This document shows, one piece after another, positions 9,120-63,707 of a DNA stretch of 64,000 bases (its first letter is position 1; each line of letters begins with the position of its first letter). A program made the translations under genes and the position numbers. The notes under the pieces were generated by a model. It did no database searches and was not told the DNA's origin. It saw only the letters and a list, made by a program, of their open reading frames with translations. This stretch comes from Trypanosoma brucei (lineage: Eukaryota), in NCBI GenBank assembly GCA_000002445.1, contig CH464491.1, positions 1,984,001 to 2,048,000 on the forward strand, in the 5' to 3' direction.

Positions 9120-11978
9120 CTAGACGGTGGGGCACGCAGATGTCACGCGGCGCACGCCTCGGGAAAGGAAGTGTAGGCTGGCCAAGTTTACCGTGGTGCG
9201 CGGAACCTTTTCTGCGACAGCCTTGTAACCAACCCTGGCCTCACTTACCGTTTTGTCCGCGTGGCAAGCAACGCAAAGTGTCTGTAGGTTGTCTAAATCA
9301 GAAGATCCCCCTCCTTGGGATACGGCTAGTATGTGATCTGCATTCCAGATGCTCCCCGGAGTAGGGTGCTCAACAATTCGGTTAAAAAGCACAGGGTGCT
9401 GTCGAAGTTGGGGGTGCAACCTGTCAAGTATATCTTCCCGTTCACTTCGACTAGTCGCAGCGACTGCTAAAGAATAAAGCAGTTCACAATCCACCTGACA
9501 AACCGAACAGATACCTTTGTCTACCTCCTGAACGCCCCTGCGGGCTGCAGAGCTGGACCGTTTGATAAAGAATACCCCGCGGCAGGCACCGCTACAAAAC
9601 ATCCGGGTATCATCGTCTATACGCACGACGCTGCCTGGTGAAATGAACTCCGAAGCTACCAGCGTACTGTCGCACTCCAAACACACCGGCAGAAAATGAG
9701 TTTCTAAAGGGACTAGCAATGCCCCGTAAGTGCGCTCGGGGAAATTGCGTTTCACTACCTTCCAGAAAAACACCCTGCCCAAGAGAATGTCGCTCTTGGC
9801 GTAACGGACAACTGTTTTCCGAGGTGCTCTCACCGGACGCCACGTAAAGTTAGATGGAAGCCAGGCGGCAGCCGTCCGCAGTCTCCGCCGTTCAACAGGA
9901 GATAACATATCGACATGGCTCAAGTAATCCCTCAGCTGCCTTGGAAACTCACCATCATGCCGCCAGTACTGCTGTGCCTCCTGAGTCGACAAACTCGTTA
10001 GATGCTTGCCTTCATGAACCACATGAATTCGACCTGTGTTGTGGCTGATACGGAAGAGAAGGGGTGCCGATAACCCTGATATGTCCAAAAAGGAGGGGGC
10101 TGGATGTCCCGCAGACGGAGTGGCTTCTTCCTCTAGTAACGCATTATGTACAGGCGCAGTGCCACTTAGGTAGCTTGCATCTAACGACAGCTTCACACCA
10201 TCGGTAATGCGCCTCACTGCTTGAAAAGATCGAGAAAGACGCGAAAACTGGGCCCCATCAAAGAAGGATCCCGTACTTATAATGTAATACAGAATGACAT
10301 GATTTTTCTGCCCAGGGCGGTGAAGCCGATCTTCCGCTTGCTGCATCCAACCGATGTCGGGCGGAAGTTCCGCAAACAACGCGCAGGAAGCACCTGTCAA
10401 CCGAACTCCAACCGCACAAGCAGTGATCCCGACAAGCGCTACAGAGACGTCCCCATCATTAAAACGTGAGAGCAGTTCCACTCTCGAGTTCATGGGAGTC
10501 CCTCCATCGATACGTATCCATGTAACCTTCTTATCGTTTACGTAAGTCGTCAGGCAATCCAAAAGATTAAGATGATGTGCAAAAAGCACAATTTTTCCAT
10601 GCTTGCAAAGCAAAAGGTCAACAATGTCTAGTATTTTTTCACGACTTTCAATCCAATTATCCGAATAAACCTTTTGGAAGAGGGACTTGTTCTTCTGACC
10701 CCTGATTGCATCAGTTGGAATACGCAAAATAACTCGTTGTTTCGTTGGCAAATCAACTAATGTTTCCGATTTAAGCCGACGAATCATGCAGGTTGCGTTT
10801 AGCAATGAATGCAATTCGGTACTTCGCGTACACTCAAATGTCCTAAAATATGGTGAGAACTCAATACGACAGTATCGCAAAGCAAATTCGAACCTTGAAG
10901 AGCCAAGCAAACCGGGACAGACCGTATCAACCTGGTTGAAAAGGTCAAAAGGGGTCGACAGCGAGGGAGTCCCGGTGAGAAGCAAACAATACTTTGTTCG
11001 CCTTCCGAGTTCACACAACAGGGTGGTGTAGTGTGCATCACAGGAAGCGTCAACTGAAGTATGGAGAATATGGCTTTCATCGACGACTAGGGAGCTCCAT
11101 TGACGACTCTTCATGTGGTTGGCCAACAAGGAAACCATATGAAAACTTGTGACAACAACCTTAGGTTCATCACTGCGGGAAAGGAAGTCACTCGAGGAAG
11201 TAATAACGCGAATATCGTCCATGTTCAGAACATCCATGAGCCATTTCTCCAACTCGTCCGCCCACATGTGCCGCAACGCGGCAGGGCAGACAATAAGTGC
11301 TGGAAAGGCGTTCAAGGCGGCCAAGGTTCCAATGGCTTGAAGGGTTTTACCAACACCCATTTCGTCAGCAAACATGGCCCGGCCACCGAATGACAACGCT
11401 TTACAAATCCCATCCACCTGATGCCGGTGTAACGCAGCCATAAGTTTTGGTGGCAGAAGATCCGGTAAATGGACAGCTTTGTTTTCTTTAACGGTTGATA
11501 TCGCTTCCCTGCAAACTCTTGAAGGCTCATTGACGTGGAGACGGTTTCCGCTCTCACCCGATAACATCCTAAGCTCATGCAGAAGGAGATCCAGTGAGTC
11601 AATGGAGTATCGAAAGCAGCCCTCTTGTATCATTGTCGACTCGCTCAAACTAAGTGGCAGCTCTTTCATAATTTGAAGGGAAGCTGAGGTAGTCATATTC
11701 ATGAAACCTAAGCGAACACATCTGTTGGTAAAATCGATTTCCACTTGCGCTATTTTGCAGTTATGTGTGGAAATCCGACCCGATATAACGGGGACAAATT
11801 CGATGAACCTTTCCCCCTCATTCAACTCTGCAACGTAATCACGAAGAACAGATTGCACGTTAAGAATTCCGTCAGGGCAACGGCACTCGAACACGCAACC
11901 AAAACGGGAAATCCTGAATAATCTCTGTGAACAGCAATCAAAGCAGTATTCCTGACCCCTTCGAAGTAGCTGCTCCAT
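9120..11978 (-). CDS. SNF2-family DNA translocase fused to a C-terminal HNH endonuclease (952 aa). This is a ZRANB3 / annealing-helicase-like architecture. There is a Cys-rich N-terminal extension and a Cys cluster between the helicase-C and HNH parts.
   Basis: ATG verified at 11978-11976. SNF2 N-lobe motifs: LHRHQVDG, DEMGVGKT (Walker A), and DESHIL (DExH). Helicase C motifs: LFAELPPDIGWMQQAEDRLHRPGQ. HNH motif near the C-terminus (about nt 9230-9350): WNADHILAVSQGGGSSDLDNLQTLCVACHADKT. Confidence 0.8.
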   Translation of the reverse strand: MEQLLRRGQEYCFDCCSQRLFRISRFGCVFECRCPDGILNVQSVLRDYVAELNEGERFIEFVPVISGRISTHNCKIAQVEIDFTNRCVRLGFMNMTTSASLQIMKELPLSLSESTMIQEGCFRYSIDSLDLLLHELRMLSGESGNRLHVNEPSRVCREAISTVKENKAVHLPDLLPPKLMAALHRHQVDGICKALSFGGRAMFADEMGVGKTLQAIGTLAALNAFPALIVCPAALRHMWADELEKWLMDVLNMDDIRVITSSSDFLSRSDEPKVVVTSFHMVSLLANHMKSRQWSSLVVDESHILHTSVDASCDAHYTTLLCELGRRTKYCLLLTGTPSLSTPFDLFNQVDTVCPGLLGSSRFEFALRYCRIEFSPYFRTFECTRSTELHSLLNATCMIRRLKSETLVDLPTKQRVILRIPTDAIRGQKNKSLFQKVYSDNWIESREKILDIVDLLLCKHGKIVLFAHHLNLLDCLTTYVNDKKVTWIRIDGGTPMNSRVELLSRFNDGDVSVALVGITACAVGVRLTGASCALFAELPPDIGWMQQAEDRLHRPGQKNHVILYYIISTGSFFDGAQFSRLSRSFQAVRRITDGVKLSLDASYLSGTAPVHNALLEEEATPSAGHPAPSFLDISGLSAPLLFRISHNTGRIHVVHEGKHLTSLSTQEAQQYWRHDGEFPRQLRDYLSHVDMLSPVERRRLRTAAAWLPSNFTWRPVRAPRKTVVRYAKSDILLGRVFFWKVVKRNFPERTYGALLVPLETHFLPVCLECDSTLVASEFISPGSVVRIDDDTRMFCSGACRGVFFIKRSSSAARRGVQEVDKGICSVCQVDCELLYSLAVAATSRSEREDILDRLHPQLRQHPVLFNRIVEHPTPGSIWNADHILAVSQGGGSSDLDNLQTLCVACHADKTVSEARVGYKAVAEKVPRTTVNLASLHFLSRGVRRVTSACPTV

Positions 11979-12688
11979 GGCCCCAAGGTCGTCAGTGCCA
12001 CCTGAAATATATAAAGAAGATTCACATAAAATCCACTACCCCTATGTGTATGCAACAGTCAAAACCGCCATAGAGGATGAGAATCAAAGAAAGGACCAAT
12101 GCATGCATATATTGTGGTGCGCGTCTAGTAACACACCACAGTGACAGCACCACTTCAAACTAAAAAAAAAAAGCTCGGCCTCTCAGTCTTTTCGTGCAGA
12201 GTCATGCAACTTTGCATGCGAAAGAACTGTGGGCAGCATATTTTCACCCTGCGGCAAACACTGCTCGTGGTCTCAGTGATATAAACGCCCTTAAATGTTT
12301 GGAAACATATTCATACGTAAAACATCGACGCGGCATATTTAAATTAATATGCCAGTTTCTTCAATAAACACATAGCAAAAGCGATTTGCTACCAACCAAC
12401 GAAAGATCAAGTACGGCTTCTGATACCTTTACAGCGCCGATGCTGGAAGGCACTTGGTGGTCTCCGATGGCGGCGAGGACCAGATCTATCCCCTGTCGCT
12501 GGAGAACACCAAAACCTTTTCGGTTCCACGATAACAACTAGAAACTTACTGTTCAACTCACTCAATGTTGTGAGCAGCGTGCCGTTTGGGGATCAAAGAT
12601 TATACAGGAAATCCGAAAGCACAAGTACGTTTCGGTTTCTCCAAACCCTTGTGCGCTTCGAGCTACCGGACAGCAGTGGGAGCCCCGT

Positions 12689-12716
12689 ACACACACAGAC
12701 ACACACACGCACGCAC
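12689..12716. repeat. Imperfect (CA)n tract in an intergenic/UTR region.
   Basis: Read directly: acacacacagacacacacacgcacgcaca. Confidence 0.85.
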
Positions 12717-13253
12717 AAATACAAATAATTTTCTTCGACACATTTGAGAATCAAACACAATCTGGATCCTTTGCCTCCTCTACCATGGGTCCGTATATAA
12801 TAAACCGCACCGGGACCTTATGCAGTGAAGTTAGGATGCGTCACTGGTTGTCTAGCTCTGAGCGGTTCTTGTTACTGATTTCCCCCTAAAATAAATTATG
12901 TTTCAGTGAAATAAAAAGATTAAGACACATATTTACATCAAATCACTATGTCACACTTAATCAAACCCCTTAATGCAGCAACTTTACTCCCAAAAGAGAA
13001 ATATCAGAGGGGGAATAGCACTACAACAGGACCAATAAGTGGGCAAAAGAGCATCGTTCCATTTGGTTGAAGAAAAAAAAACATTTTGAGCACAGAAAAA
13101 AATTACCAAAAAAGCCGTCGCTTTCTTGGTACGTTACGTTCTTATATAACAATGTAAACGCTATTACAGGGTGTTGTCTTCCCTATTCTCTCCCCTACAA
13201 CTAACCATTTTCGCTATGTTCCCCTATGGAAAAAAAGAAGGATACTCCGCCCT

Positions 13254-14436: not shown

Positions 14437-15612
14437 TTACACAAGTCGTGTCAGACGCGCAACCACGCTATCAACAAGTCCCAGGACTACGAACAAGCCA
14501 CCAATTATTCCACAGAGTTGCACCAAAAAGTGGTATATCGGTTCTCGTTTGAAATTATTGTTCACCTGCATTGGAAAAAAATCGAAGGAAAACTCGACAG
14601 AAGGAAAACCACCATAGCCAATAGCCACTTCACGGGAATTCCAGTTTGCGCTGTATTCATATGTCGGGGGGTGGAGGCCAGATGAAGCGCCACTTCCGTA
14701 GGTGGTAGGCACTATGTTCAAATAATACCTGACCTTCATGAATCTTCCACTGCCGTTAAATCGTTGTTTCTCCAGTGGATTTAAAACACCTCGGCGAGAA
14801 TGACGTCTTACGCTTTCGTCCCCAATAGAAAATTTATTTATCACATGACTTGCATCAAATTTCAAAAGGTCCTCCATCTTGATTGTGTTTTTGATGACCT
14901 TTGGAGTGAAAAATATAACGCCACTCACTTTTCTTACATTCAAGGCACCCCTGTAATTACAGCCGGGGTTTTCCAGAGATAGTTCACCGATGCATTGCTC
15001 GACCACATTTTTATTCGGCCTCGGCAGTCCTTTTCTATCGTGTTCGGCCATAACTTCTTCGCAAGTGTTGCAGCAATTCTTACCTCCAGCGATGGCTTTA
15101 TTACCAGTAAAACACCTTCCGCAAAAGTCGGGGGAGTTGGGGTCATTTCTCCTAGTATATAAAGGGCTCCTGGGGTCTGTGAAAAAGCGTCGGGTGCCCA
15201 AATAGGCAAGATTTCCCCCTACATCCACGGGAGTTTTTAACAGGTTTTCCGTAACATTAATACTAAAAGTTCCGCTAACATCACTCACATCGAGGAAAAG
15301 ATCGTGACACGGCTCTTGCATGAATGTAATGTCAATATTAAAAGTGATATTCTTCTCAGGGCTGGTATCCACTGATAGTTCCGTCTTGTAGGCATTCCAA
15401 CCTAAAGTGTAGGACATAACTTCCCACGATGCAAGAAGCCCAACCGCAAAAACTGTTATAATGCTAATAATAGCACCAGCTCGGGTCTGGGATCGGCAAT
15501 AATCCTCCTTTGGTTTCGTGAAAAGGTCTACAGCTGCAACTTTCCGAAGCAAAAAGGACGACGGAACTGGCTCGTCGTCGCTTTCGCTGCTGCGTTTCCG
15601 GAGGCCTATCAT
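14437..15612 (-). CDS. ERGIC3/Erv46-family ER-to-Golgi vesicle protein (391 aa). Two terminal transmembrane helices flank a cysteine-rich luminal domain.
   Basis: ATG verified at 15612-15610. N-terminal TM: AGAIISIITVFAVGLLASW. C-terminal TM: FLVQLCGIIGGLFVVLGLV. Luminal cysteine pattern: DFCGRCFTG...NCCNTCEEV. Overall length and topology match ERGIC-32/Erv41/Erv46. Confidence 0.55.
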   Translation of the reverse strand: MIGLRKRSSESDDEPVPSSFLLRKVAAVDLFTKPKEDYCRSQTRAGAIISIITVFAVGLLASWEVMSYTLGWNAYKTELSVDTSPEKNITFNIDITFMQEPCHDLFLDVSDVSGTFSINVTENLLKTPVDVGGNLAYLGTRRFFTDPRSPLYTRRNDPNSPDFCGRCFTGNKAIAGGKNCCNTCEEVMAEHDRKGLPRPNKNVVEQCIGELSLENPGCNYRGALNVRKVSGVIFFTPKVIKNTIKMEDLLKFDASHVINKFSIGDESVRRHSRRGVLNPLEKQRFNGSGRFMKVRYYLNIVPTTYGSGASSGLHPPTYEYSANWNSREVAIGYGGFPSVEFSFDFFPMQVNNNFKREPIYHFLVQLCGIIGGLFVVLGLVDSVVARLTRLV

Positions 15613-18600
15613 TGAAATAAGTTATACGGCTGTTTCTTCATACATTGAAAAGGAAGAAAGCACTCGGTGCTGCTGTCAGTAGAAGCAGAAAATGAACGCA
15701 GAGCCACAAGGGGCTACTTGCAGACACCTCATGGCATTGATGCTAAAGTGTCTCAACAGCGTGACCGCATCTGAATAAGACATTACTCCTGGTAGTTACA
15801 CATTCCATCCCAAATCAAAATACAAACACGTGGAGTGGAAGGGAAGGGGAGGAGCACAAGAACAAACTGCGATCATGCCCGTAGAGAGGTCTTGGAGGGC
15901 AGGATAACTCGCTGACGATCGAATCTGCGCCATCCGCCAGAATAAGGCAATTCAACAAACACATGTAAGATTCCGCAAAAAAGATTACAGCGCTAAATGT
16001 TTACGTGCAGCGGCCCCTACAATTCTCTTGGGTCATTGACAGCACCTAGACTTCTCTTGTCAGCCACTCAGGCACATTTGTCCCCACCTTGTTTCCTTCA
16101 GGTGAGATATTTTTTTCACTTGTCCCCCCTACTCTGGAGCAACATTTGTTGCGCGGGTGTAACTCCCAAACTTTAGAACTCCCCACTGAAATTCATTACA
16201 CTGCAGTAGACATTCACCAGGATCACGACCGACCACCACGACGAAGCACACAACAAGGTGCTAGCTGGTGCTTATGATGTCATCCCGCCTTTGAGCACTC
16301 GATGCACACTCTTACTTTGGCGACTACGGGCTGCTTTTGAATAGTATTCGCTGTCTTTTAAAATACTAGGTGCTTGGCGGACCAAAGAGCTTTTTTTCTT
16401 TGGTGAAAGGGGGGTCAGACTGAAGAGGGGCCCACCGTTCATCCTCCCCCTAACACCATGGAAAAAGTTAATCACCATACAAGGTTTAACACCCTCTTTC
16501 AACAAGCCTTCTCCGTGGTTCATGGCGCTTTATCCGCAGTAGAGCTGACCGCACCCACGCGCACGCCGTTGGGAGTTATTTCCCCCTCTTGCTGGTCCTC
16601 GAATAAAAAGCATACCACGAAATCGGATAAACCCTGCTTTCGCTGGAGAATCAGCGGGCATTCCAGCGTACTCGATGCTAACTCAGGTGGTTGGCGACCC
16701 GTTAAGGAGGAAAGGCAACAACATCAGCTTTGGGGTTTGATAAGAGCGCCCACGCGACCTTCAGCACGTGCAGATGCGCTTTCTGGGATACCTGCAGTGT
16801 GTTTCCGTTTTTGAGCTCACTGTCCGAACTAGACACGTGCCCAACTTCATATGGATCGCGCAGGAGACCTGGTGTTCTCTCAAAGCCAAAGAGGGTGGCA
16901 TCGGCAAAACACCCGTACAATTAAAAATCTAGCCTTGCCATCGTGTCCACAGCTCCCTTGTGTGCGGAGGAGAGCAAACTCACGAGGATATCTTAATATC
17001 CGAGCAAGCGGCTGCTCCAAAGTGTAAAGAATACCGATACTTCTGGGTAATCGTATAGCGTCCGGCAACGTCGACAGGCGCTGTTTCCATCTCAGATAAT
17101 GCCTGTTGAGCTCATGATCGGAGACTGGTTGCGTTTGAACCTTGGTCCCGTGCGTTTCCTGTGGCCGTTAACCGTCATCCGACCACCGCTGGCGTGCCGT
17201 CTTCATAGGGGAACTCTTCATAACAGGGAATGCGCACAAAAAAGGAAAAAAAGCACAAAGAAACACCGAGGACGGCGGGAAGGTGTAGGCAGAGCGATTG
17301 CCATATCCTGGCGGATTTGTCAGGACGTCAGGTATTTCATCTAGAGCCGCGGTGTTAACGTTCCAGGGAAATGGAAAAAGGACGGAGTAATTCGAGGGAA
17401 CGGGGGGAGCCCCACGTCGGTACAGAAGAAGGAGCGTGGCAATAGAAGGTGCATCCATGTCGCTTGCAGGTGTTGCCACAAAAGAGTCAGGAAAGGGGGA
17501 AGAGAATGACGGTGTTTAGCGATTCATCATCCCCTCTAATTGGCGTAAAAGCTGCCCCCTGAGGTAAATGGGAGTACCTTGCAACACGCACGGAGAAGCA
17601 CAGCATAATTAACCGGAGGATGAATGCCTTTAGACCTGCAAAGGACCAAAAGCGGAAAGAGGAAGAAAAGTAACTTGGAGAGGGCGCCGTTTTCGAAATA
17701 CGCCAAATCAACCTCGTGTTTTGTATTCGCAGTGCCACGCGGTACAACCCCTTAAGCCGTCTGAACCGAGATTCTGAATCAATCTCAAGTGAAAGGTAGG
17801 AGCATTTCTGCCCCCTCGTAGCGGTTGTGGGGAAGGGGAGTGCCATCCCGAAATGCAGGTGGCGTGCCGTCAAACCCTACGAAACACGGTGTAGTAGTTC
17901 CCAAGGTACCTGTTCATTCTCCCTTAGTGACTCTCGACACTAGTGCTTTTAAGGCGTCACCACCCGGCGATCCTCTTCTTTTGTGCTACGCTGTGCGGTC
18001 AGACCTAGTAAGAATCGCGAACCCCGCGATGAATAAGCGTCTACAGGAAAAGGAAAGGAAAAGAAAAACGGCAGGGACTGTGATAATCGCACCGTTAGAG
18101 TGCCAACAGCGCGTGAATCAACTATAGTTGCCATGCCTCTGAGAAGAAGTTTGAGTAACGGAAGCTGCTGTTGAGATTCATGGACTTGTCGCGGGTGATC
18201 GCACCCCTCATGTACAGTTCTGGGTTGAAAAGAGAGTGAGAGGAGGGCAAGGCGAAGCAGATAGGCTTGATTTTCCCCGCGGCTCGTTTATTATTCCTTT
18301 TTCCTTCGCATTGCACCGGTAAGAACCCCGAAGGTAGCATTACATTTTCCCTGCTGCAGGGGCATGTGCTGCCGGTTGAGTCGAGCGTTGCATCGGGCTG
18401 TCTCACCGAGCCAAATGGTGTGGGTGTGCCACCACCTCTTCTCCGAGGAGTGGAGTTCCTAAGCATCGCCCATCCGGCTGGCCCCAGAAATATTATTTCA
18501 GTCTTTTAGGTTACAGTGGTGAAGTGCCACCCGAGCTCATATTGGCCGAACCGTAGGCGGAAGGGGAATTGTGAACTTTCATGGCCCTCTCTTTTTTTTT

Positions 18601-19039
18601 TCCTTGGTGACCGCCGCCTTCCCTGAGCCCTCTCTGATTGGGGGGAGCGGAAGGGGATCCCGCCGGTTTCATCTCCGTCGTTGGAGAGTTACTTCCCCGG
18701 CCCCTTCGATCGATGTTTCCTCGTCCGTTTCTTTGGTTTATCGCACCTGTGTGGACGGGTTGTTGGTTTCTGGTACTTCGTCTTTTGATGTTCGAGCACG
18801 CCCTTTAACCTCTAGGTTGGACTCCTTCGACGCACGCATGTTCTTCCACAGTGCGGGCGCCGAGGTTTTTTTGTTTTGGCACCCCTTCTACCTGCGTGTA
18901 CAGCCAACGTGGATCAGCTGGTGGACACAGTTGGCCTCCGGGCGCGTCCTCTTTTAGCGGTATTCTCTGAAGGCGGGTGGTTAAGACTCATTTTTTATTT
19001 GTGCCGCTGTTACTTCAATGTGATCCTGACGCATCGTGC

Positions 19040-19300
19040 ATCTGCTTTGTTTGTGCTAGCTGATCGTTGCCACTGTTGGTTTGTTGCTGTCCCTATGTTG
19101 TTGTCTCTTACAGGGTGTGGTGGTAGTGTTTGCTTTACGTTCGTATGGTGAATGCCTTCTACGATGTTTTGATTTCCGGACGTTTTGGGTCTTTGGTTTT
19201 GTTAGTGTTTAGTGTTGACAAAGTTGTTAACGTTGGTGCTGCAGCCGACGTGGGACTGTGTGGGCCGTCGGTACTATTGGTGTGTGTAGCTCTCCCTCTT
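19040..19300 (+). promoter_or_regulatory. GT-rich tract on the plus strand about 300-500 bp upstream of the first plus-strand gene. Candidate GT-rich pol II initiation element of the type described for T. brucei TSSs.
   Basis: Read directly from the sequence: gtttgtgctagctgatcgttgccactgttggtttgttgctgtccctatgttgttgtctctta...gtgtggtggtagtgtttgctttacgttcgtatggtg...gttttgggtctttggttttgttagtgtttagtgttg. A weaker CA-rich mirror lies on the plus strand (GT-rich on the minus strand) near 15800-16260, on the side of the minus-strand unit. Confidence 0.4.
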
Positions 19301-19370
19301 GGCTTCGTTTCAACAGCCCTTTCACGTAGCAGGTAACGTGGTTGCTGTACCTTTGAGATGTATATATATA

Positions 19371-19385
19371 TATATTGGAAAGAAT
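19371..19385. repeat. (TA)7 microsatellite inside the strand-switch region.
   Basis: Read directly: tatatatatatatat. Confidence 0.85.
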
Positions 19386-19566
19386 TGTCCTACAAAAGGG
19401 ACAAGGGCAGCTGATTTACTTGAAGTAGAGAGGGTCGTTGGGAAGAGGGTTGTTTGGCTTCATTCTCCCAGATTAGCTAATTGGCGACAAAACGCAGTTT
19501 GCTACCATCTTTTTTGCTCTGCCTTTTCATGTTCTCCTACACTCTATAAAGCTGTTGCTAAACGCG

Positions 19567-20322
19567 ATGGCCAAACTTGGGACCTTGTACTCCGATGATA
19601 AAAGCGTAGAAAAATATTACGGTCAACGCCATCGGTTGTGGTCTCGTTTTGACGACGGCGTTTGGATGACGAAGAAAGGATGGTTCGAGGTGACGCCTGA
19701 AGGCATTGCCCGATCTTCTGCTTCCCTGCATGACGTTCTCAAAGATAAGGGATGTTGTTTGGATTTGTTTTGCGGCTGTGGCGGTGACACAGTCCAATTG
19801 GCTCAGGTTTTTGAAAAGGTAATAGCTGTAGATATAGATCCCGATGCTATAGAAGCAGCCAAAAAGAATGCCGAGGTATATGGTGTTTCGACTCGAGTTA
19901 CATTTCTGTGCGCCGACTACAGGACTCTAAAACCTGAAAACTTTTCCGTTAACGCTGTTCACTGCTCTCCCCCATGGGGCGGTGAACTGTATGCTGGTGC
20001 GCCGTTTTTCGATTTGCAAAATTCGCTTTGTGCCTCAAATGGCATAAAAATTTCGGACTTTTATGAACTGCTGTCAAAATTTTCGAATAATATTACCATG
20101 TTTCTACCGAGAAACACTCTTCTGTATTCAGTAGTTCCACCAAAATTTGCTTGGACCTTTGCGGTGTGTAGACACTATGCCAACGAAAAGTGCAAAGGGA
20201 TTACTATTTTGTGTGGCGATTTGGTAGCGTCTTCCCAGCTGAAAGCACCCTCAGCGCCAGTGTATTCAATACGAAATAAGATTCCACTTTGTGTAGAGAA
20301 GCGAGGGCGTGGGTCTTTGTGA
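19567..20322 (+). CDS. TGS1: Trimethylguanosine synthase (cap guanine-N2 methyltransferase), a compact 251-aa methyltransferase-only form.
   Basis: The ORF-track start at 19555 is TTG. The first ATG is at 19567 (MAKLGTLY), preceded by a polyY tract at 19506-19545 and an AG. Motifs: FEVTPE, VLDLFCGCGGDTVQLA (SAM motif I), VIAVDIDP, and SPPWGG (cap-guanine binding). Confidence 0.85.
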   Translation: MAKLGTLYSDDKSVEKYYGQRHRLWSRFDDGVWMTKKGWFEVTPEGIARSSASLHDVLKDKGCCLDLFCGCGGDTVQLAQVFEKVIAVDIDPDAIEAAKKNAEVYGVSTRVTFLCADYRTLKPENFSVNAVHCSPPWGGELYAGAPFFDLQNSLCASNGIKISDFYELLSKFSNNITMFLPRNTLLYSVVPPKFAWTFAVCRHYANEKCKGITILCGDLVASSQLKAPSAPVYSIRNKIPLCVEKRGRGSL

Positions 20323-23166: not shown

Positions 23167-24477
23167 ATGAAACGAAGGAGGGACAGTAACGGTAAGTCCA
23201 TTGCGGCACTTAGGGCTGGGGTGGCAGCGCTGAGCGTATCTAGCAATATAGCTTCTAGGGAGCTCACCTGTCGTGATTCCCATGTTAAAGCTATATTAGA
23301 CTTCTTGAATGATAAAGTTCACCCTGTCATGCAGGTTTTCGGTATGCCGGGTACGGGAAAGACAGCGTCAGTGAACCACGCCCTCGCTCTTCTTGCGAGC
23401 TCGTCACCAGCAGGGTCGAAGCCCACAGCTGTCTTTCTTAATGGGTACATTATACAAAAAACATCTGATATATACTGGACCTTGAACTCACACCTAAGCA
23501 AAACTCGGTTAAAACATGCTGAAAATTGCTTACCGGAGCAATGTCCTGCTCTGATCGAAAAGAGATTTAAGCAAGGTTGGGGGAGTAGCACTACGCCCTT
23601 ATGTGTGATAGTTGTCGATGAAGTTGACAAAGTCCTTAAAAAGCACAACAAGGCGTTTTTCAGGATAGTAGATTGGTTAAGTCTACCGTATGCGTTTTGT
23701 AAACTGATAACAATTTCAAATAGCATGGAACTGGCAGCTGATGCGAAAACGAGAAGTCGACTGGACATAACGAAACGTCTCGTCTTCGAACCATATAGTC
23801 TGCCTGAGCTCAAGGAAATTATTCTTCGAAGAGTCAGTCACATCAAACCTACGTTATTTGCAGAGAAAGCAATCAACTATCTATGTAACCAAACTGCATC
23901 GCACTACGGGGATGTGAGACGTCTTTTACAATCTGCTTCCTCCGCCATTTGCGGTCTCATGATGAGAATAGAGGAGGGTTACAAGTTGCCGGAGAAGCAT
24001 GATGGCTTGCTAACTGTAAAGGATGTTCACTCAGTTGTTCGCCAAATATTTCACGATCGCTTTGTTGAGTTTATCCAAACTATTCGTCTTCCCGTAGTGT
24101 TTATCAGCGTTGCTGTCATTGCAGTAGAGACAGCAAGGCTTTTTCGAGCGAACTGCGAGGACAGCCGACTACCCATAGATAGCTTGTTTACGGCAACGAA
24201 GAGAGCCCAAGAGCGTTTTGGCTCAGTTTTTGCAGACCTACATGCCGTCACTTTGAACTATGGGGCGTACCTAGAAATAGTAGAGATGCTGCGGGAGGTA
24301 GCACTGATTGACGTTTCGGTAGGTGAAGAGCGCATTCCCGTCAAAACGGTTCAGTCACTACTCGAGGCCACTGAGAGGGCACACGCGTCAATGCTACAAC
24401 CATTCCAAACAGTCGTCGATGCATGCAAGCTCCACGATGACTTTGGTACGGGGATATGCCCACTGTTTTCGATATAG
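23167..24477 (+). CDS. ORC1: Origin recognition complex subunit ORC1/CDC6 (436 aa), an AAA+ ATPase.
   Basis: ATG verified at 23167. Walker A: VFGMPGTGKTASV. Walker B: CVIVVDEVDKV. Sensor regions and a winged-helix-like C-terminus. The 436-aa length matches what I recall for the T. brucei ORC1/CDC6 protein. Confidence 0.85.
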   Translation: MKRRRDSNGKSIAALRAGVAALSVSSNIASRELTCRDSHVKAILDFLNDKVHPVMQVFGMPGTGKTASVNHALALLASSSPAGSKPTAVFLNGYIIQKTSDIYWTLNSHLSKTRLKHAENCLPEQCPALIEKRFKQGWGSSTTPLCVIVVDEVDKVLKKHNKAFFRIVDWLSLPYAFCKLITISNSMELAADAKTRSRLDITKRLVFEPYSLPELKEIILRRVSHIKPTLFAEKAINYLCNQTASHYGDVRRLLQSASSAICGLMMRIEEGYKLPEKHDGLLTVKDVHSVVRQIFHDRFVEFIQTIRLPVVFISVAVIAVETARLFRANCEDSRLPIDSLFTATKRAQERFGSVFADLHAVTLNYGAYLEIVEMLREVALIDVSVGEERIPVKTVQSLLEATERAHASMLQPFQTVVDACKLHDDFGTGICPLFSI

Positions 24478-43023: not shown

Positions 43024-44345
43024 GCTATTTGTAGACTTGGAGTGAGATATGCCGCAGACATGAATGTTTTAATAAATAGGAGATGGGGTCAGATGCCGAT
43101 GCTGCTCCTGCGTGTACGGGCTTGCGAATGTTTTTCTTCCCGTTTTTGAAACGACTGTTGCCATTGTGCACCCTCTTGTCCTCTTGATATGTGGTGGAGC
43201 TTTATTTTTTCATTTTATTTCGACCCAAGTCCCCCTTGTTACCGTTATGCATAGCATGAGAGTAGTCTTATTGGAGATGACAGGAAGGGGTGGGTTCCGC
43301 GCCTTTCGTTGAATGGGGATAACCAGGTAATGTTACCGGACACCTTTAATGAATGCTGCATCCCTATCGCTACCTTGTATTTGTTTATCGTTTACTTGAT
43401 AAGGGGAGAGGTGTCCACGGGGAAGTGGTTTGTGAACTTCCGTGGTATTTATAGTGTGGGGGTGGATTCATTTTGATGGTGGTTTGTAACTGCTGATTTG
43501 TAGTGTTTTGTAGCTTTTAGTGTTGTTGCAGCAATATTTCTGTGAGAGGAAGCGTACGAATCCACGAAAGATATGAGCCCACCCCTCAGTTAATTATTCC
43601 CATTTCCTACGTGGGTGCTTATGTGCTCCACTGCCCCGCCTCTGTTTGTGGTTTGTACTTTATTTGCTACCATTAGTTTGTTCTCTATGCGAGTAAATGA
43701 ATCCAAGACACGGGGGTGCCGCTGTGCAACATTACCGATGAATGGCTTCCCTGTTAGATACGGTTTATGTTTTACCATACATTTAAAAGAAATTAAATCT
43801 GTCGTTATTTCTTGAAGTTTTCGAACGAAGTGTTGACAATGGATGTTGTTCGCGATATCCTGGGTGAGGGGTCGGGGGTTCCCCAGGGTAACATCATATA
43901 CGAGTCATGCGGACCAAAGTAAAATATATCATACCAGTTCTTCTGTTCAGTTCCTGCTTGTGTGGTGGACTAGGTTGTTCCGTGTCTGGTTTTTAAAGTT
44001 TTTCGAAAGATTGTTTTAAGTGGAGTTGTCCGTCGTGCGGTGCGGTATTTAGCTTCGTGAGTTTTGGGTTTCCCCAGAGGATCGTACCTCCGCATGAGCA
44101 TGGTGAATTTCCAAGAGAGCAACGCACACGCCCGCCGGATCCTAGTTATCTTGTTTGTATGGATATGCTCCTCGTGATCGTTTTTCTCTCAGTAGGCTGG
44201 TGAGCAAGGATGTTAGTGGGGCCTGGACCCCCTGAAAGGTCAAGGAGAATCGTGGCAAGACAACTAACGATATGGAAGCACGCGGTGGCGTGTGATGCTC
44301 TATATCTCGCTTTATTGTTGTAATTATTACATATCATGATTGCTA

Positions 44346-44368
44346 TGTTTTTCTTTTTTCTTTTTTAG
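44346..44368 (+). promoter_or_regulatory. PolyY-AG splice acceptor signal for the small ORF at 44394.
   Basis: Sequence tgtttttcttttttcttttttag lies 25 nt upstream of the ATG. Confidence 0.4.
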
Positions 44369-44393
44369 TGCTAAAACTTAAGGAGTTTTTAGA

Positions 44394-44630
44394 ATGAGAC
44401 AACCCTTTCCGACTACTTGGAAGGTTTACCTCCCCGGTCTGTTCGTCATGGCGATTTACACCTTCGTCATATACTTCAATAATACCCGCGGCAATTTAGT
44501 GAAGGCGGGTCACGACTTTACGCCGATCTATTCTGAGGAGGGAAAACTGGAAGGCTTCACGCATCCCGTGTTGGTGCGAGCAGGTGATAACTACAGGAGT
44601 CGCGAGAACGCAAAAGCAGACTCGTCATAA
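44394..44630 (+). CDS. Candidate small membrane protein (78 aa) with a single predicted TM helix.
   Basis: ATG at 44394 immediately downstream of a strong polyY-AG. Hydrophobic helix: LPGLFVMAIYTFVIYF. It sits alone in a 2-kb gap, and a separate polyY tract (about 44880-44985) serves the downstream proteasome gene. This suggests the mini-ORF is an independently processed mRNA. Confidence 0.35.
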   Translation: MRQPFPTTWKVYLPGLFVMAIYTFVIYFNNTRGNLVKAGHDFTPIYSEEGKLEGFTHPVLVRAGDNYRSRENAKADSS

Positions 44631-45088
44631 TGGATGCGTTGGAGGCTACCGTTCACATGATGCGAATCTATAAGTCTGCTTCGTTCCTGTTATTAATACT
44701 ATGTTTATATTTTGGTTGTTGATGTAAGCGAGCTATCGCCACCACTTTATCGCATTTCAGCATTCTCGCATGCTGCGATGGCAGCTGCGGGCTTATTTAC
44801 AACTTTTGTCTGCTAATTTTGTGCCTGTGTACGTGTTTGGGTGATCACTGGTGGTGGCATACTTTGTCGCACCTACTGCCTTCCTGTTGCGTAATATCGT
44901 ACCTTTTAACTTAGTTATTTCGCTTTTGCTTTTGTGTACCACCTTGCTGCTCCACGATTTTTTTCTTTTGACGTGGGGAAATAGTTAGGAGTTCAAACTA
45001 CTTGTACCCTTCCACGCTCCGATTGCTGTAGTCAAGTTACCATTGGTGCGAAGATTATAAAGAGGAAAGCCAGCCTGCATTTGCTTCC

Positions 45089-51957: not shown

Positions 51958-53568
51958 TTGCTGTATTGAGCGTTGTCGCTATCTCTTCTCCCCTCCTTTG
52001 ACGTGTAAATGATGAGATTTACGTGTGAAATGTGAGGGGTGGTCTTTGGATGACAGGGCTTAAGGAGATGGGCGAAACCCCCACAACTGGTAAGAAGACG
52101 CGATCATTTCTCAATCTTATTTATTTTTCTACTTTTCGTTTTAGAACCACCTCTCGTAGATCCTTTCAGACATGTTGCCTTTTCAGGTGGCTGCTCCGCA
52201 TTAATACCATTTGCGCGTAGCGTTTTGTTACTTGTTCCCTTAGTGCGTGCGTACGTACCTGTCTCATGCTTACACATACAACAACGCAAGTGGTGAGGAG
52301 AGAGTAGTTAAAGGAGTGGAGCCAGAGAGTTTTTGTCTTTCGCCCCTTGAGAGCGTTGACCACAGGGGTAGGGAATGAAAAGGGGGAAAGAATACCTGTG
52401 TCGTGCTGTGGTTTTCTTTCCACTGCAGATGAAGCTACACCTTTCTCTATTCTCTCGTGGGGCGGTTAATGTTGTCCATTCATTATTCAGTCCCTTCCCG
52501 GTAGTACATGGACAGCACGAGTCAAGCAACAGCGGCATTAATTTCTGTTCTGACACAAGTTGGATAACAGTGCCTGTACTGTAGCCCTCAGAAAATCGCA
52601 AGTAATGGGAAAGCATGGTGAATGGTGTTTGTGCCAGCGAAGAGATAAATGCAAGACAAAGTGGACCGTGCGACAATTTTGGTTTCTCCTAAAGCGACGA
52701 ATCCCTCTCATTATAATTTCTGTCTTTTTTACTCGCGAACAACATGGGTATGTGTATGTGTGTGCCGGACAACTTCATTTGCATTGGGGATGTTTACCAT
52801 CACGTCACTTACCGGAGCAACGAAGGTAGTATGATCTGTAAAGTGTATTTCGTTGGGAGACGTGGTGTTTTTTGCGTGTGGAAGGAAGCTGATCGTGCGC
52901 CGCAACACGTGTGTGCGCGTTCGTGTCTGCTTCGGTGATGTGACACCTTGTGATCATTCAATGGTGAGCATTGTTTGTTATCTTGCCGTGGCTATTTTCA
53001 CACGATCTGCTTCTTTGATTTGTTTGTTCGTTTATGTTTTCCAATCCTTTTTAATGTTATATTCATGGACTGATTTCCACTTATTTTACACTATATATAT
53101 ATATTAGCATGTACGACCACGTGGTCGCACTGCTTTTTTTTCCTTAAGTGGGGAGGCGGGTGTGGAAAATGTAACCTGATCTATTCGGTAACTTATTTGT
53201 TTCTGTGGTGCGCGCGCGGTGAGGGCACGTTAATTTTCTTTTTTTTTTTTCTACCCTTCCCTTGCGCATTGTTGCAGGTCTATTATTATCACTGTGTTCT
53301 TTTTGCATCTTTTTGTTTTGTTATTCACCCATCTCTATTTACCCTTCCCTTTCCCCCTTCTTCCACATTCCTTTTTTTTACTGTGTAAGTGTCTACTAGG
53401 TGAGGCAGGGCGGTTCAAGAAGGAGGTGTGTATTTTCTTTCACTTTCCTACTTGTTTGCTTTTTTTTTATTCCTTACGGGGCAGGGCGAGGGGCATACAT
53501 ACAAAAAGTGACACAATTGCTGGATCGTGGTGGTGTCGGTTCCCCCTAGAGGAGAGGATCTATTCGCA

Positions 53569-62458: not shown

Positions 62459-63272
62459 TTCGGGTATTTTGTAGCTGAGAGACAGCTCACTCCTTTTGAT
62501 GACCGTTTTAGTCATCTGTGTTGTAAAACACATGAAAGAATGGTCGTGTATTAGTGGTATGCTATGCTTTTGTTTTGTTTTATTATTTTTTTTCCTTGTT
62601 TCATCCTCCCCCGTCCTGTGTTCTCGTTTTCTTCCATCGGTAGTGGTGCTTCCCTTTTGGAGGCTCGCTTTTACCCCCTTTTGGCATTATTTTTATCGTT
62701 GGTATCGTTCATCCATGTTTATTTCACGTATCGGCATAATTCCACACACCAACCCACAATTGTGTATTCGCGCACGGATCCAACGGATTGTAACGCTATT
62801 AGTTAGTGGAAAAGGGGGGTCAATTAAATAACAAATGCGCCTGAGGAAGAAACGAATGATGATATATACATATATATCAGAAGAGATGAACTAATCCGAT
62901 AAACCTTTAATTTTTAATCATCATGATACCGGCGCGCGCACTCTACCTGTTTTGTATTTACTGGGGAGAGAGGGAGGGAGGGGGGAAGGGGGAAAAGGGG
63001 CCGGAAAAAACCGCTGCATACTTCCCGGACTTGTTTGTTTCCTTTTCCTACCCAGTCCCACCACCGTCGCGGAGCTGAACTATCTTGGTGTGGACTCGTT
63101 CAGCTACAGACGCATGTGCTTACTTGCATTTGAGGTACATATATCCATTATTCTTTTTTCACTTCGCCATCAATTCAAACTATCTTCTCACCTGTAACTT
63201 CATAATTTAATGGAAGATAAGGGGTATTACTTACGAACAGAAGGGAGTAACCGAGAAGTTGAACACAAAAAG

Positions 63273-63707
63273 GGTATGCCGCCAACTAAAGGAGGAAAGC
63301 GTCCGCTCCCACTCGGTGGAAAGGGAAAGGGCAAACGCCCACCCGGTCAGACAACAAAGTCATCAAGCAGCAGGAAGAAGAGTGGCGCTCGTCGCGGAAA
63401 GAAACAACAACGTTGGGATTTATACATCCACCGAACTCTCCGTCAAGTTTACAAGCGCGGCACGCTCTCCAAGGCTGCCGTCCGCGTCCTATCATCCTTC
63501 ATTGAAGACATGTACGGGAAAATTCAGGCTGAGGCGGTTCATGTGGCGTGTATTAACAACGTAAAGACTCTTACTGCTCGTGAAATTCAAACATCCGCGA
63601 GGTTGCTTCTTCCACCAGAACTGGCAAAGCACGCCATGAGTGAGGGCACAAAGGCAGTCGCCAAATACAACGCGTCACGCGAGGAGGCGTACTCCAAGGT
63701 ACTGTAG
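63273..63707 (+). CDS. H2BV: Histone H2B variant (144 aa from MPPTKGG). The histone-fold core is H2B-like, but the N-tail and several core positions diverge from canonical trypanosomatid H2B, so I assign it to H2B.V.
   Basis: H2B fold and C-terminal helix: YIHRTLRQVYKRGTLSKAAVRVLSSFIEDMYGKIQAEAVHVACINNVKTLTAREIQTSARLLLPPELAKHAMSEGTKAVAKY. An upstream ATG at 63210 exists, but the first AG after the polyY tract (63180-63202) lies downstream of it, so 63273 is the more likely start. Confidence 0.75.
   Translation, partial: GMPPTKGGKRPLPLGGKGKGKRPPGQTTKSSSSRKKSGARRGKKQQRWDLYIHRTLRQVYKRGTLSKAAVRVLSSFIEDMYGKIQAEAVHVACINNVKTLTAREIQTSARLLLPPELAKHAMSEGTKAVAKYNASREEAYSKVL

What the first reader, a model, noticed from the sequence alone, without database searches (positions are those of the whole stretch)
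15613..19566. Divergent strand-switch region with strand-asymmetric GT-rich tracts: a candidate bidirectional pol II transcription start zone
Every ORF left of 15612 is on the minus strand and every ORF right of 19567 is on the plus strand. This leaves a 3.95-kb ORF-free gap, the canonical layout of a trypanosomatid divergent SSR where pol II initiates bidirectionally. On the plus-strand side, 19040-19300 is conspicuously GT-rich on the plus strand. On the minus-strand side (about 15800-16260), the plus strand is CA-rich, so that the minus strand is GT-rich. Each transcription unit therefore has a GT-rich element on its own sense strand just upstream of its first gene. This mirrors the reported ability of GT-rich elements to drive pol II initiation and H2A.Z deposition in T. 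brucei. The same window happens to encode an H2B variant (63273-63707), the partner of H2A.Z at such sites.
Basis: partly seen in the sequence, partly recalled or inferred. Interest (0 to 1): 0.55.

Follow-up and report, generated by a model that had tools for sequence, protein, structure and literature searches.

The report
Known trypanosome divergent transcription start region
This is the non-coding gap between two head-to-head gene arrays on Trypanosoma brucei chromosome 11, already catalogued as a pair of RNA polymerase II start regions. Its GT-rich tract is real on one side only, so the finding is correct but ordinary.

Summary
The window is Trypanozoon (T. brucei group) chromosome 11. 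The 3,954-bp gap at 15613-19566 separates Tb11.02.5080 (ERV/ERGIC-like, minus strand) from Tb11.02.5090 (TbTgs, plus strand). Kolev et al. 2010 (Table S14) already list both gene arrays as 'Divergent' pol II transcription units, and they report 5'-triphosphate RNA tags at every such unit. The core interpretation is therefore right, and already known.

- **Plus side.** The GT tract (18984-19313, core 19034-19293, G+T 0.72) is the most GT-rich 260-nt window in all 64 kb. It exceeds every intergenic region and all 200 Markov simulations. Its position is conserved in T. congolense (-640 versus -533 from the ATG).
- **Minus side.** The claimed element at 15800-16260 is at background level (0.57-0.585). 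Only a ~118-nt patch (16151-16268) stands out, and only modestly.

The gap shows no coding potential, tRNA, Rfam hit or repeat.

New minor points:
- T. cruzi and T. theileri carry an extra 474-aa gene here and a compact 0.4-0.7-kb switch region.
- T. brucei and T. congolense share a positionally conserved compositional layout without any alignable sequence: skew switch, then a GA-rich block, then the GT tract.

H2B.V lies in the same window by coincidence. Promoter function of the tract at this locus remains untested.

The parts
14437..15612 (-). First gene of the minus-strand polycistronic unit: ERV/ERGIC-like membrane protein (Tb11.02.5080; EAN79683/XP_828795)
   Evidence: Pfam COPIIcoated_ERV and ERGIC_N. 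Exact match to the T. brucei TREU927 protein. Listed as the first ORF of a 'Divergent' unit in Kolev Table S14.
15613..19566 (.). Non-coding divergent strand-switch region (3,954 bp)
   Evidence: no coding potential. (no RNA genes). (no repeats).
15630..15660 (-). Candidate proximal polypyrimidine tract (15660-15647) with AG (15631-15630): trans-splice acceptor for the ERV gene. Inferred from sequence only.
   Evidence: Read from the minus-strand sequence. Not experimentally mapped here.
15789..15866 (-). Candidate distal polypyrimidine tract (15866-15832) with AG (15790-15789): alternative splice acceptor for the ERV gene. Inferred.
16151..16268 (-). Short minus-sense GT-rich (plus-strand CA-rich) patch.
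   Evidence: 100-nt C+A 0.69 and 50-nt 0.76. Top 0.13-0.19% of windows, but only the 8th-longest such stretch.
16957..16957 (.). Minimum of cumulative GC skew: the compositional switch point between the two arms of the region
   Evidence: The T. congolense equivalent lies at -2789 from the Tgs ATG, versus -2610 here.
17207..17521 (+). Purine-rich (GA) block, the most purine-rich 300-nt window of the 64 kb. Function unknown. It may mark the 5' edge of the plus-strand start region.
   Evidence: A+G 0.667, top 0.01% of windows. T. congolense has its top purine window at a similar offset, -2582 versus -2345.
18984..19313 (+). GT-rich, A-poor tract on the sense strand of the plus array (core 19034-19293, G+T 0.723). 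Candidate directional promoter and H2A.Z-positioning element.
   Evidence: Conserved in position and composition in T. congolense (0.762 at -640) and T. theileri (0.719 at -275). Identical in T. equiperdum.
19361..19375 (.). (TA)7.5 microsatellite between the GT tract and the splice signals. Its length differs between strains.
   Evidence: T. equiperdum has three more TA units.
19507..19551 (+). Candidate polypyrimidine tract (19507-19546) with AG (19550-19551): trans-splice acceptor for TbTgs. Inferred.
   Evidence: Read from the sequence.
19567..20322 (+). First gene of the plus-strand unit: trimethylguanosine synthase TbTgs (Tb11.02.5090)
   Evidence: Pfam Methyltransf_15. 100% match to P0001. 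Gene ID from PMC2588526. Listed as first ORF of a 'Divergent' unit.
63210..63707 (+). Histone H2B variant gene (H2B.V, Tb11.02.5250). It lies inside the same plus-strand unit and is not part of the start region.

Best explanation
The interval is the divergent strand-switch region between Tb11.02.5080 and Tb11.02.5090 on T. brucei-group chromosome 11. In other words, it holds two back-to-back pol II transcription start regions.

Proposed mechanism:
1. Pol II starts over a broad zone in each arm of the gap, from two separate promoters facing in opposite directions. The surrounding chromatin carries H2A.Z/H2B.V nucleosomes.
2. The primary transcripts run outward into the two gene arrays.
3. Each first mRNA is released by trans-splicing at the first polypyrimidine/AG signal: about 19550 for Tgs, and about 15630 or 15790 for the ERV gene.
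4. The unspliced leader RNA is discarded.

On the plus arm, the sense strand turns G-rich at the skew switch (about 16957). It then passes through a GA-rich block (17207-17521) and ends in a 330-nt GT-rich, A-poor tract (18984-19313), 250-580 nt upstream of the Tgs ATG. That tract is the best candidate for a Wedel-type GT-rich element that biases initiation towards the sense direction and promotes H2A.Z deposition.

The minus arm has no comparable element, only a ~118-nt patch.

What is shown and what is inferred:
- Shown here: the strand switch, the non-coding nature of the gap, the compositional anatomy, and its positional conservation.
- Taken from the literature: pol II initiation at this locus, and the marks that divergent strand-switch regions carry in general.
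- Inferred: that this specific GT tract is a functional promoter element, the exact start sites, and the splice sites.
For: **Identity of the locus**
- The Tgs protein is 100% identical to a Trypanozoon protein.
- The ERV, ORC1/CDC6 and H2B.V proteins match T. brucei, T. b. gambiense or T. equiperdum entries exactly.
- Gene IDs are confirmed.

**Published status**
- Kolev 2010 Table S14 lists both units as 'Divergent'.
- The text reports 5'-triphosphate tag enrichment at every divergent unit, coinciding with sites of modified and variant histones.

**Known mechanism (Wedel 2017)**
- Initiation occurs at the 5' end of H2A.Z regions with a 4:1 sense bias.
- Synthetic GT elements drive orientation-dependent transcription and H2A.Z deposition.

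**Anatomy here**
- The plus tract is the top GT window of 64 kb and lies beyond all 200 simulations.
- In the right arm there are 11 GT-only runs of 10 nt or more and no CA-only runs.
- The gap is non-coding and has no RNA genes.

**Conservation**
- T. congolense has its top GT window at -640 from the Tgs ATG. T. theileri has top-ranked GT windows on both sense strands of a 665-bp switch region.
- T. brucei and T. congolense composition profiles upstream of Tgs correlate best at lag 0-100 nt (keto r = 0.85, purine r = 0.6). Nothing aligns between them.
Against: - No raw ChIP-seq or start-site data for this locus could be examined. Only a published table and general statements were available.
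- This tract itself was never assayed. Wedel's fragments came from chromosome 10.
- Wedel's published 10-mers are just as frequent, or more so, in ordinary intergenic regions inside the array (63 hits in 53001-53500 versus 45 per kb here). The 10-mer signature is therefore not specific.
- The most enriched published motif, poly-G, is absent. There is no G run longer than 6 in the gap.
- The minus arm lacks a distinct element, yet must also initiate.
- T. vivax and T. cruzi show no top-ranked plus-side GT peak.
- The start site could lie near the skew switch and GA block (about 17.0-17.5 kb) rather than at the GT tract.
Confidence: 0.85

Rival explanations
1. The region is a genuine pol II start region, but the GT-rich tract is a passive compositional by-product. 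It would reflect transcription- or replication-associated mutational skew together with the usual T-richness of trypanosome non-coding sense strands. Initiation would instead be set by chromatin state or by a short sequence-specific core promoter elsewhere in the gap.
For: - Sense-strand G+T excess is general. All intergenic regions of both arrays have G+T of 0.50-0.65 on the sense strand.
- The published 10-mers are equally dense in ordinary intergenic DNA.
- The minus array evidently starts without a strong GT tract.
- T. vivax and T. cruzi lack a top-ranked plus-side peak.
- A secondary report says the GT and poly-T elements lay outside the essential 75-bp core promoter in the one region dissected.
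Against: - The tract is a clear outlier: 0.723 versus at most 0.677 anywhere else, and beyond all simulations.
- Its position relative to the first ATG is kept in T. congolense although the sequence is unalignable. A mirrored pair exists in T. theileri.
- Synthetic GT elements are sufficient for directional transcription and H2A.Z deposition.
Confidence: 0.3
2. The gap is not truly empty. It would contain an unannotated gene, or the decayed remains of the 474-aa gene that sits between ERV and Tgs in T. cruzi and T. theileri. On this view the unusual composition is a relic of coding sequence.
For: - T. cruzi and T. theileri have a minus-strand 474/475-aa gene at exactly this position, and a switch region of only 420-665 bp.
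- The T. brucei gap is 1.5-1.9 kb longer than the ERV-to-Tgs distance in those species.
Against: - tblastn with both proteins finds nothing in the gap.
- A family HMM searched against the six-frame translation also finds nothing (best E = 3.7, versus 5e-253 for the positive control).
- Homologues occur only in non-salivarian trypanosomes.
- Codon-usage scores of the gap ORFs are at noise level.
- No conserved translated similarity exists among the T. brucei, T. congolense and T. vivax gaps.
- Annotators call no gene here.
Confidence: 0.04
3. The region also, or mainly, acts as a DNA replication origin. ORC1/CDC6 binds at boundaries of T. brucei transcription units. On this view the skew switch at about 16957 would reflect replication rather than the direction of transcription.
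For: - From general knowledge, not tested here: T. brucei ORC1/CDC6 sites and mapped origins lie at boundaries of transcription units.
- The cumulative GC skew has a sharp minimum inside the gap.
Against: - Only a minority of such regions fire as origins.
- The skew follows coding strand throughout both arrays, as expected for transcription-linked asymmetry.
- No origin-mapping data for this locus were available.
- This reading does not exclude the transcription-start role.
Confidence: 0.15

Closest known systems
Divergent strand-switch regions / divergent transcription start regions of T. brucei (Siegel 2009; Kolev 2010)
   Same: Head-to-head gene arrays and a non-coding gap of a few kb. This exact pair of units is listed as 'Divergent' in Kolev Table S14. 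The GC and keto skews switch inside the gap.
   Different: Nothing essential. The chromatin marks and 5' ends were not inspected directly here.
GT-rich dispersed pol II promoters (Wedel et al. 2017, EMBO J)
   Same: A sense-strand GT-rich, A-poor tract lies at the upstream end of the plus array and is strongly strand-specific. Its composition is of the same kind as the active synthetic GT_210 element, though less extreme (G+T 0.69-0.72 versus 0.80).
   Different: There are no long poly-G runs, which are the most enriched published motif. The published 10-mers are not more frequent than in ordinary intergenic DNA. The minus arm lacks a comparable tract. This locus was not among the fragments tested.
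Sequence-specific unidirectional core promoters in T. brucei strand-switch regions (Cordon-Obras et al. 2022, Cell Rep)
   Same: A model of two oppositely oriented promoters per region, each driving one array (secondary descriptions). This would explain how the minus array starts without a GT tract.
Compact divergent strand-switch regions of T. theileri and T. cruzi at the orthologous position
   Same: Same flanking synteny (ERV ... Tgs, ORC1/CDC6, PPR, BEACH). T. theileri shows mirror-image T/G-rich tracts on both sense strands, including (GT)n and G-runs.
   Different: An extra 474-aa minus-strand gene is present, and the gap is only 420-665 bp, against 3,954 bp in T. brucei, more than 4.8 kb in T. 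congolense and 8.4 kb in T. vivax.
Dispersed CpG-island-type promoters of mammals
   Same: Broad initiation zones without TATA or Inr-type motifs, divergent transcription, and variant-histone-marked chromatin. This analogy is drawn by Kolev 2010 and Wedel 2017.
   Different: There is no CpG enrichment logic. Transcription here is polycistronic with trans-splicing, and the strand bias is attributed to GT asymmetry.

Membership tests
Trypanosomatid divergent strand-switch region (pair of pol II start regions) | Two polycistronic gene arrays arranged head to head, with the coding strand switching at the gap | tested here: met
   ORF map, T. equiperdum gene calls and Pfam identities of the flanking genes.
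Trypanosomatid divergent strand-switch region (pair of pol II start regions) | The gap is non-coding and holds no pol III or other RNA genes that would define another boundary type | tested here: met
   Codon-usage scores at noise level. No tRNA. No Rfam hit even at E<=1. No conserved translated similarity.
Trypanosomatid divergent strand-switch region (pair of pol II start regions) | Primary (5'-triphosphate) transcripts starting in the gap and running outward on both strands | not testable with these tools
   Raw data are not available here. Kolev 2010 Table S14 lists both units as 'Divergent', and the text reports tag enrichment at every divergent unit.
Trypanosomatid divergent strand-switch region (pair of pol II start regions) | Enrichment of H2A.Z, H2B.V, H4K10ac and related marks | not testable with these tools
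   Only general statements in the literature were available. No locus-level track could be read.
Trypanosomatid divergent strand-switch region (pair of pol II start regions) | The first gene of each array is preceded by a polypyrimidine tract and an AG splice acceptor downstream of the presumed start zone | tested here: met
   Sequence reading: 19507-19551 (+), and 15660-15630 and 15866-15789 (-). Splice-site usage is not experimentally confirmed (searches found no data).
GT-rich promoter element (Wedel 2017) | G+T excess on the coding strand at the upstream end of the start region: plus array | tested here: met
   0.723, the top window of 64 kb, above all intergenic regions and all 200 simulations.
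GT-rich promoter element (Wedel 2017) | G+T excess on the coding strand at the upstream end of the start region: minus array | tested here: inconclusive
   At 260 nt it is 0.585, which is background. At 100 nt a short patch at 16151-16268 reaches 0.69, top 0.13% of windows.
GT-rich promoter element (Wedel 2017) | Enrichment of the published coding-strand 10-mers (Dataset EV1) | tested here: inconclusive
   The strand bias is strong: 45 versus 8 one-mismatch hits in 18501-19500. The density, however, is no higher than in ordinary intergenic regions (up to 63 per 500 nt).
GT-rich promoter element (Wedel 2017) | Long G runs, the most enriched published 10-mer | tested here: not met
   The longest G run in the gap is 6 nt, and there is no canonical G-quadruplex motif.
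GT-rich promoter element (Wedel 2017) | Orientation-dependent promoter activity and induced H2A.Z deposition | not testable with these tools
   This needs a reporter assay or genome editing. The published reporters used chromosome 10 fragments and synthetic elements.
Sequence-specific core promoter (Cordon-Obras 2022) | Presence of the three motifs of the 75-bp core promoter | not tested
   The paper is not held in the library, so the motifs were unavailable.

The most novel reading that the evidence does not exclude
The layout upstream of Tgs is a functional, length-constrained compositional architecture. It runs from a skew switch at about -2.6 kb, through a GA-rich block at about -2.3 kb and a GT-rich tract at about -0.5 kb, to the splice signals. 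Selection would maintain its composition and spacing rather than its sequence, since T. brucei and T. congolense share it with no alignable DNA. The partner minus array would use a different, non-GT promoter type. That would make this an intrinsically asymmetric pair of promoters, assembled after salivarian trypanosomes lost (or stercorarian ones gained) a 474-aa gene at the switch point.
Probability: 0.2. Interest if true: 0.35.

Novelty: already known. Interest (0 to 1): 0.12.

Why it matters
It matters little as a discovery. This strand-switch region has been listed as a pair of pol II start regions since 2010, and GT-rich sense-strand tracts at such sites were described in 2017.

Its modest value is as a worked example:
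- It shows that the GT signature can be strongly one-sided within a single region.
- It shows that the published 10-mer list does not separate start regions from ordinary intergenic DNA.
- It shows that composition and spacing, not sequence, are what T. brucei and T. congolense share upstream of the first gene.

The 665-bp T. theileri orthologue, with mirror-image tracts, would be a convenient minimal region for dissecting a promoter.

Tried and rejected
1. **Hidden genes in the gap.** I used ORF listing, codon-usage log-odds, an exact-sequence look-up of ten ORFs, and tblastx among the three salivarian gaps. Nothing was found. The exact look-up is uninformative for ORFs with TTG or GTG starts.
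2. **Relic of the 474-aa stercorarian gene.** tblastn and a family HMM against six-frame translations found nothing.
3. **Structured RNAs and tRNAs.** None found.
4. **Repeats or mobile-element remnants.** Only a (TA)n microsatellite and chance-level short repeats turned up.
5. **G-quadruplex or poly-G explanation.** There is no such motif in the gap.
6. **DNA alignment of the gap between species.** Nothing aligned. This is weakly informative, because the flanking proteins are only about 64% identical.
7. **Published 10-mer scoring as a specific test.** Rejected as non-discriminating.
8. **Cordon-Obras 2022.** The paper could not be obtained.
9. **Mapped splice sites for Tb11.02.5080 and Tb11.02.5090.** None were present in the held supplements.
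10. **TREU927 coordinates for placing Kolev's novel transcripts.** The look-up returned only the T. equiperdum contig.
Full report
**What the window is**

The first plus-strand gene after the gap (19567-20322) encodes an RNA cap guanine-N2 methyltransferase (Pfam Methyltransf_15). It is 100% identical to a Trypanozoon protein and 60-66% identical to its orthologues in other Trypanosoma species.

The DNA is 99.89% identical to T. equiperdum OVI contig CZPT02001525.1. Exact-sequence look-ups match T. brucei TREU927, T. b. gambiense or T. equiperdum entries. The ERV-like protein is EAN79683/XP_828795 (TREU927). The ORC1/CDC6 protein is EAN79686. The histone is 'histone H2B variant, putative' in T. 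b. gambiense.

The literature gives TbTgs = Tb11.02.5090, H2BV = Tb11.02.5250 and ORC1/CDC6 = Tb927.11.7216. The window is therefore T. brucei-group chromosome 11. The gap lies between Tb11.02.5080 and Tb11.02.5090.

**Checking the observation**

The strand switch is real.
- Six minus-strand genes end at 15612, and all long plus-strand genes start at 19567 or later.
- The few opposite-strand ORFs of 150 aa or more are nested in longer genes. Their codon scores are at noise level.

The 3,954-bp gap is non-coding by every test available.
- Its ORFs are at most 128 aa.
- Its ORFs of 80 aa or more score at most 0.066 per codon, against 0.082-0.278 for the 24 real genes.
- The T. equiperdum annotation places no gene there.
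- There is no tRNA, no Rfam hit at gathering score or at E<=1, and no significant tandem, direct or inverted repeat apart from a (TA)7.5 microsatellite.

The plus-side GT tract is confirmed and is in fact the compositional extreme of the window.
- 19040-19300 has G+T = 0.716.
- The window at 19034 (0.723) ranks first of 63,741.
- It exceeds the best 260-nt window of each of the 12 plus-array and 4 minus-array intergenic regions long enough to hold one (0.527-0.677).
- It exceeds all 200 Markov-1 simulations of the whole window (mean maximum 0.640 +/- 0.013, highest 0.688).
- 18984-19313 is the longest stretch with 100-nt G+T of at least 0.65.
- The right arm of the gap has 11 GT-only runs of 10 nt or more and no CA-only runs.

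The minus-side claim is weak.
- 15800-16260 has C+A of only 0.57.
- The best 260-nt minus-sense G+T in the left arm is 0.585. That is within the intergenic background and within what random sequence reaches.
- Only a ~118-nt patch (16151-16268) is notable at fine scale. It is in the top 0.13% of 100-nt windows but is only the eighth-longest such stretch.

**What it is**

Kolev et al. 2010 mapped putative pol II start sites genome-wide with a 5'-triphosphate-enriched library.
- Their Table S14 lists 'Tb11.02.5080 -> Tb11.02.4570, -, Divergent' and 'Tb11.02.5090 -> Tb11.02.5410, +, Divergent'.

This exact gap is therefore already catalogued as a divergent pair of pol II start regions.

Wedel et al. 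2017 showed several relevant things:
- Initiation occurs at the upstream end of H2A.Z domains, with a 4:1 sense bias.
- Synthetic GT elements drive orientation-dependent transcription and H2A.Z deposition.

Their tested natural fragments came from chromosome 10, not from this locus.

Secondary descriptions of Cordon-Obras 2022 say that each such region holds two separate unidirectional promoters. [quoted passage not shown] I could not obtain that paper.

**How specific the GT signature is**

I scored the 157 published coding-strand 10-mers across the window, allowing one mismatch.
- The plus tract shows a strong strand bias: 45 versus 8 hits in 18501-19500.
- Ordinary intergenic regions inside the array score as high or higher, for example 63 hits in 53001-53500.
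- The list is dominated by T-rich words that are common in trypanosome untranslated regions, so it does not discriminate.
- The most enriched published word, G10, has no counterpart here. The longest G run is 6 nt, and there is no G-quadruplex motif in the gap.

What distinguishes the tract is combined G+T richness with A depletion (A 0.115-0.13), not any specific motif.

**Comparative evidence**

Orthologous loci were fetched through the Tgs protein. Synteny is conserved throughout (ERV ... Tgs, a 553-aa protein, a 130-aa protein, ORC1/CDC6, PPR, BEACH).

T. cruzi and T. theileri carry an additional minus-strand 474/475-aa coiled-coil gene between ERV and Tgs.
- This leaves a switch region of only 420 and 665 bp respectively.
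- That gene has homologues only in non-salivarian trypanosomes.
- It has left no detectable relic in the T. brucei, T. congolense or T. vivax gaps by tblastn or by family HMM (best E = 0.77-4, against 5e-253 for the positive control).
- The salivarian gaps are long: 3.95 kb in T. brucei, more than 4.8 kb in T. congolense (the contig ends) and 8.4 kb in T. vivax.

Nothing in the T. brucei gap aligns with the other species by blastn or tblastx. Yet the composition is positionally conserved.
- The top GT window of the T. congolense contig (0.762) lies at -640 from the Tgs ATG, against -533 in T. brucei.
- In T. theileri, the top-ranked GT window (0.719 at -275) and the top-ranked minus-sense GT window (0.735 at -684) of the 20-kb locus are the two halves of the compact switch region. 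They include (GT)n and G-runs.
- T. cruzi and T. vivax show no top-ranked plus-side peak.

17207-17521 is the most purine-rich 300-nt window on the plus strand in the whole 64 kb (A+G 0.667). It lies just to the right of the cumulative GC-skew minimum at 16957.

T. congolense has the same features at similar offsets:

| Feature (offset from Tgs ATG) | T. congolense | T. brucei |
|---|---|---|
| Top purine window | -2582 | -2345 |
| GC-skew minimum | -2789 | -2610 |

Composition profiles of the 3.95 kb upstream of Tgs correlate best between the two species at lag 0-100 nt (keto r = 0.85, T r = 0.86, purine r = 0.57-0.62). The purine correlation vanishes at lags of 500 nt or more.

The plus arm therefore has a conserved layout: skew switch, GA block, GT tract, polypyrimidine/AG, ATG. 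Sequence alone cannot tell whether initiation peaks at the GA block or at the GT tract.

**Mechanism, with what is shown and what is inferred**

- Shown here: the head-to-head arrays, the non-coding gap, the one-sided GT extreme, and its positional conservation.
- From the literature: pol II initiates here in both directions, and such regions carry H2A.Z/H2B.V and acetylated histones.
- Inferred: the 330-nt GT tract biases initiation towards Tgs and favours H2A.Z deposition.
- Inferred: the first mRNAs are released at the polypyrimidine/AG signals near 19550 (+) and near 15630 or 15790 (-).
- Inferred: the minus array relies on a different or weaker element.

My confidence estimates are:
- about 0.95 that this is a divergent pol II start region;
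- about 0.5-0.6 that the GT tract is itself functional;
- about 0.25 that the left patch is functional.

**Rivals**

1. The tract is a passive skew by-product, and a short core promoter or chromatin state does the work. This is plausible (0.3) but sits uneasily with the outlier magnitude and the positional conservation.
2. A hidden or decayed gene lies in the gap. This is essentially excluded (0.04).
3. The region is a replication origin. This is not exclusive of the main reading and is untested (0.15).

**Comparison with known systems, and verdict**

The locus is a member of the T. brucei class of divergent transcription start regions, and an already listed one. Its plus arm resembles a Wedel-type GT-rich promoter in composition and strand specificity. 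However, it lacks poly-G, and its activity is untested.

The H2B.V gene at 63210-63707 is simply one of the genes of the plus array (Tb11.02.5090-5410). Its presence is coincidental.

Novelty: already known. Interest is low. The only fresh points are minor and comparative.

Noticed in passing
L004 8156-9580 (-), L006 7908-9335 (-); corresponding position window 15613-19566: T. cruzi and T. theileri have an extra 474/475-aa coiled-coil gene between ERV and Tgs. Homologues occur only in non-salivarian trypanosomes. T. brucei, T. congolense and T. vivax lack it, with no detectable relic, and have much longer gaps (3.95 kb, more than 4.8 kb and 8.4 kb).
   Followed up: yes
window 17207-17521 (+): This is the most purine-rich (GA) 300-nt window of the whole 64 kb. 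It sits at the centre of the gap, next to the GC-skew minimum (16957). T. congolense has its top purine window and skew minimum at similar offsets from Tgs. Function unknown.
   Followed up: partly
window 19361-19375: A (TA)7.5 microsatellite lies about 190 nt upstream of the Tgs ATG. T. equiperdum has three more TA units. The T10 run at 18592 also varies in length, whereas the GT tract itself is invariant between the two genomes.
   Followed up: partly
window 11979-13253; L004 3881-4792, L006 4009-4920: T. cruzi and T. theileri have a 303-aa ABC_tran gene between the SNF2-HNH gene and the hexapeptide-repeat gene. T. brucei has only a 1.3-kb intergenic region there, with no tblastn relic.
   Followed up: partly
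L006 9336-10000 (T. theileri): This compact 665-bp divergent switch region has a mirror-image layout. The left half has long A-runs and (CA)n on the plus strand, which read as T-runs and (GT)n on the minus sense strand. A G-rich patch (about 9683-9706) is followed by long T-runs on the right. It would make a convenient minimal natural example of the GT/T-rich sense-strand rule.
   Followed up: partly
window 52501-53500 and 43024-45088: These are unusually long intergenic regions inside the plus array (1.6 and 2.1 kb). They have the highest density of the published 'start-region' 10-mers in the window (63 hits in 53001-53500). Kolev lists no internal start site in this array, so they probably reflect ordinary T-rich untranslated regions.
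   Followed up: no
window 43862, 47249, 62963 (+): All canonical G-quadruplex motifs in the 64 kb lie on the plus (sense) strand of plus-array intergenic regions. None is on the minus strand and none is in the strand-switch region.
   Followed up: no
window 23167-24477 (+): The ORC1/CDC6 gene (Tb927.11.7216) is the fourth gene of the plus array, 3.6 kb from the switch region. From general knowledge, ORC1/CDC6 binds at boundaries of transcription units. Whether this region is an origin was not testable.
   Followed up: no
L003 5529-9755 (T. vivax): The T. vivax assembly annotates five small plus-strand genes (104-219 aa, no Pfam hit) inside its 8.4-kb gap. They show no translated similarity to the T. 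brucei or T. congolense gaps and are probably over-predictions.
   Followed up: partly
window 9120-11978 (-): A 952-aa protein combines SNF2-related helicase domains with a C-terminal HNH endonuclease domain. It is conserved in T. theileri (989 aa).
   Followed up: no
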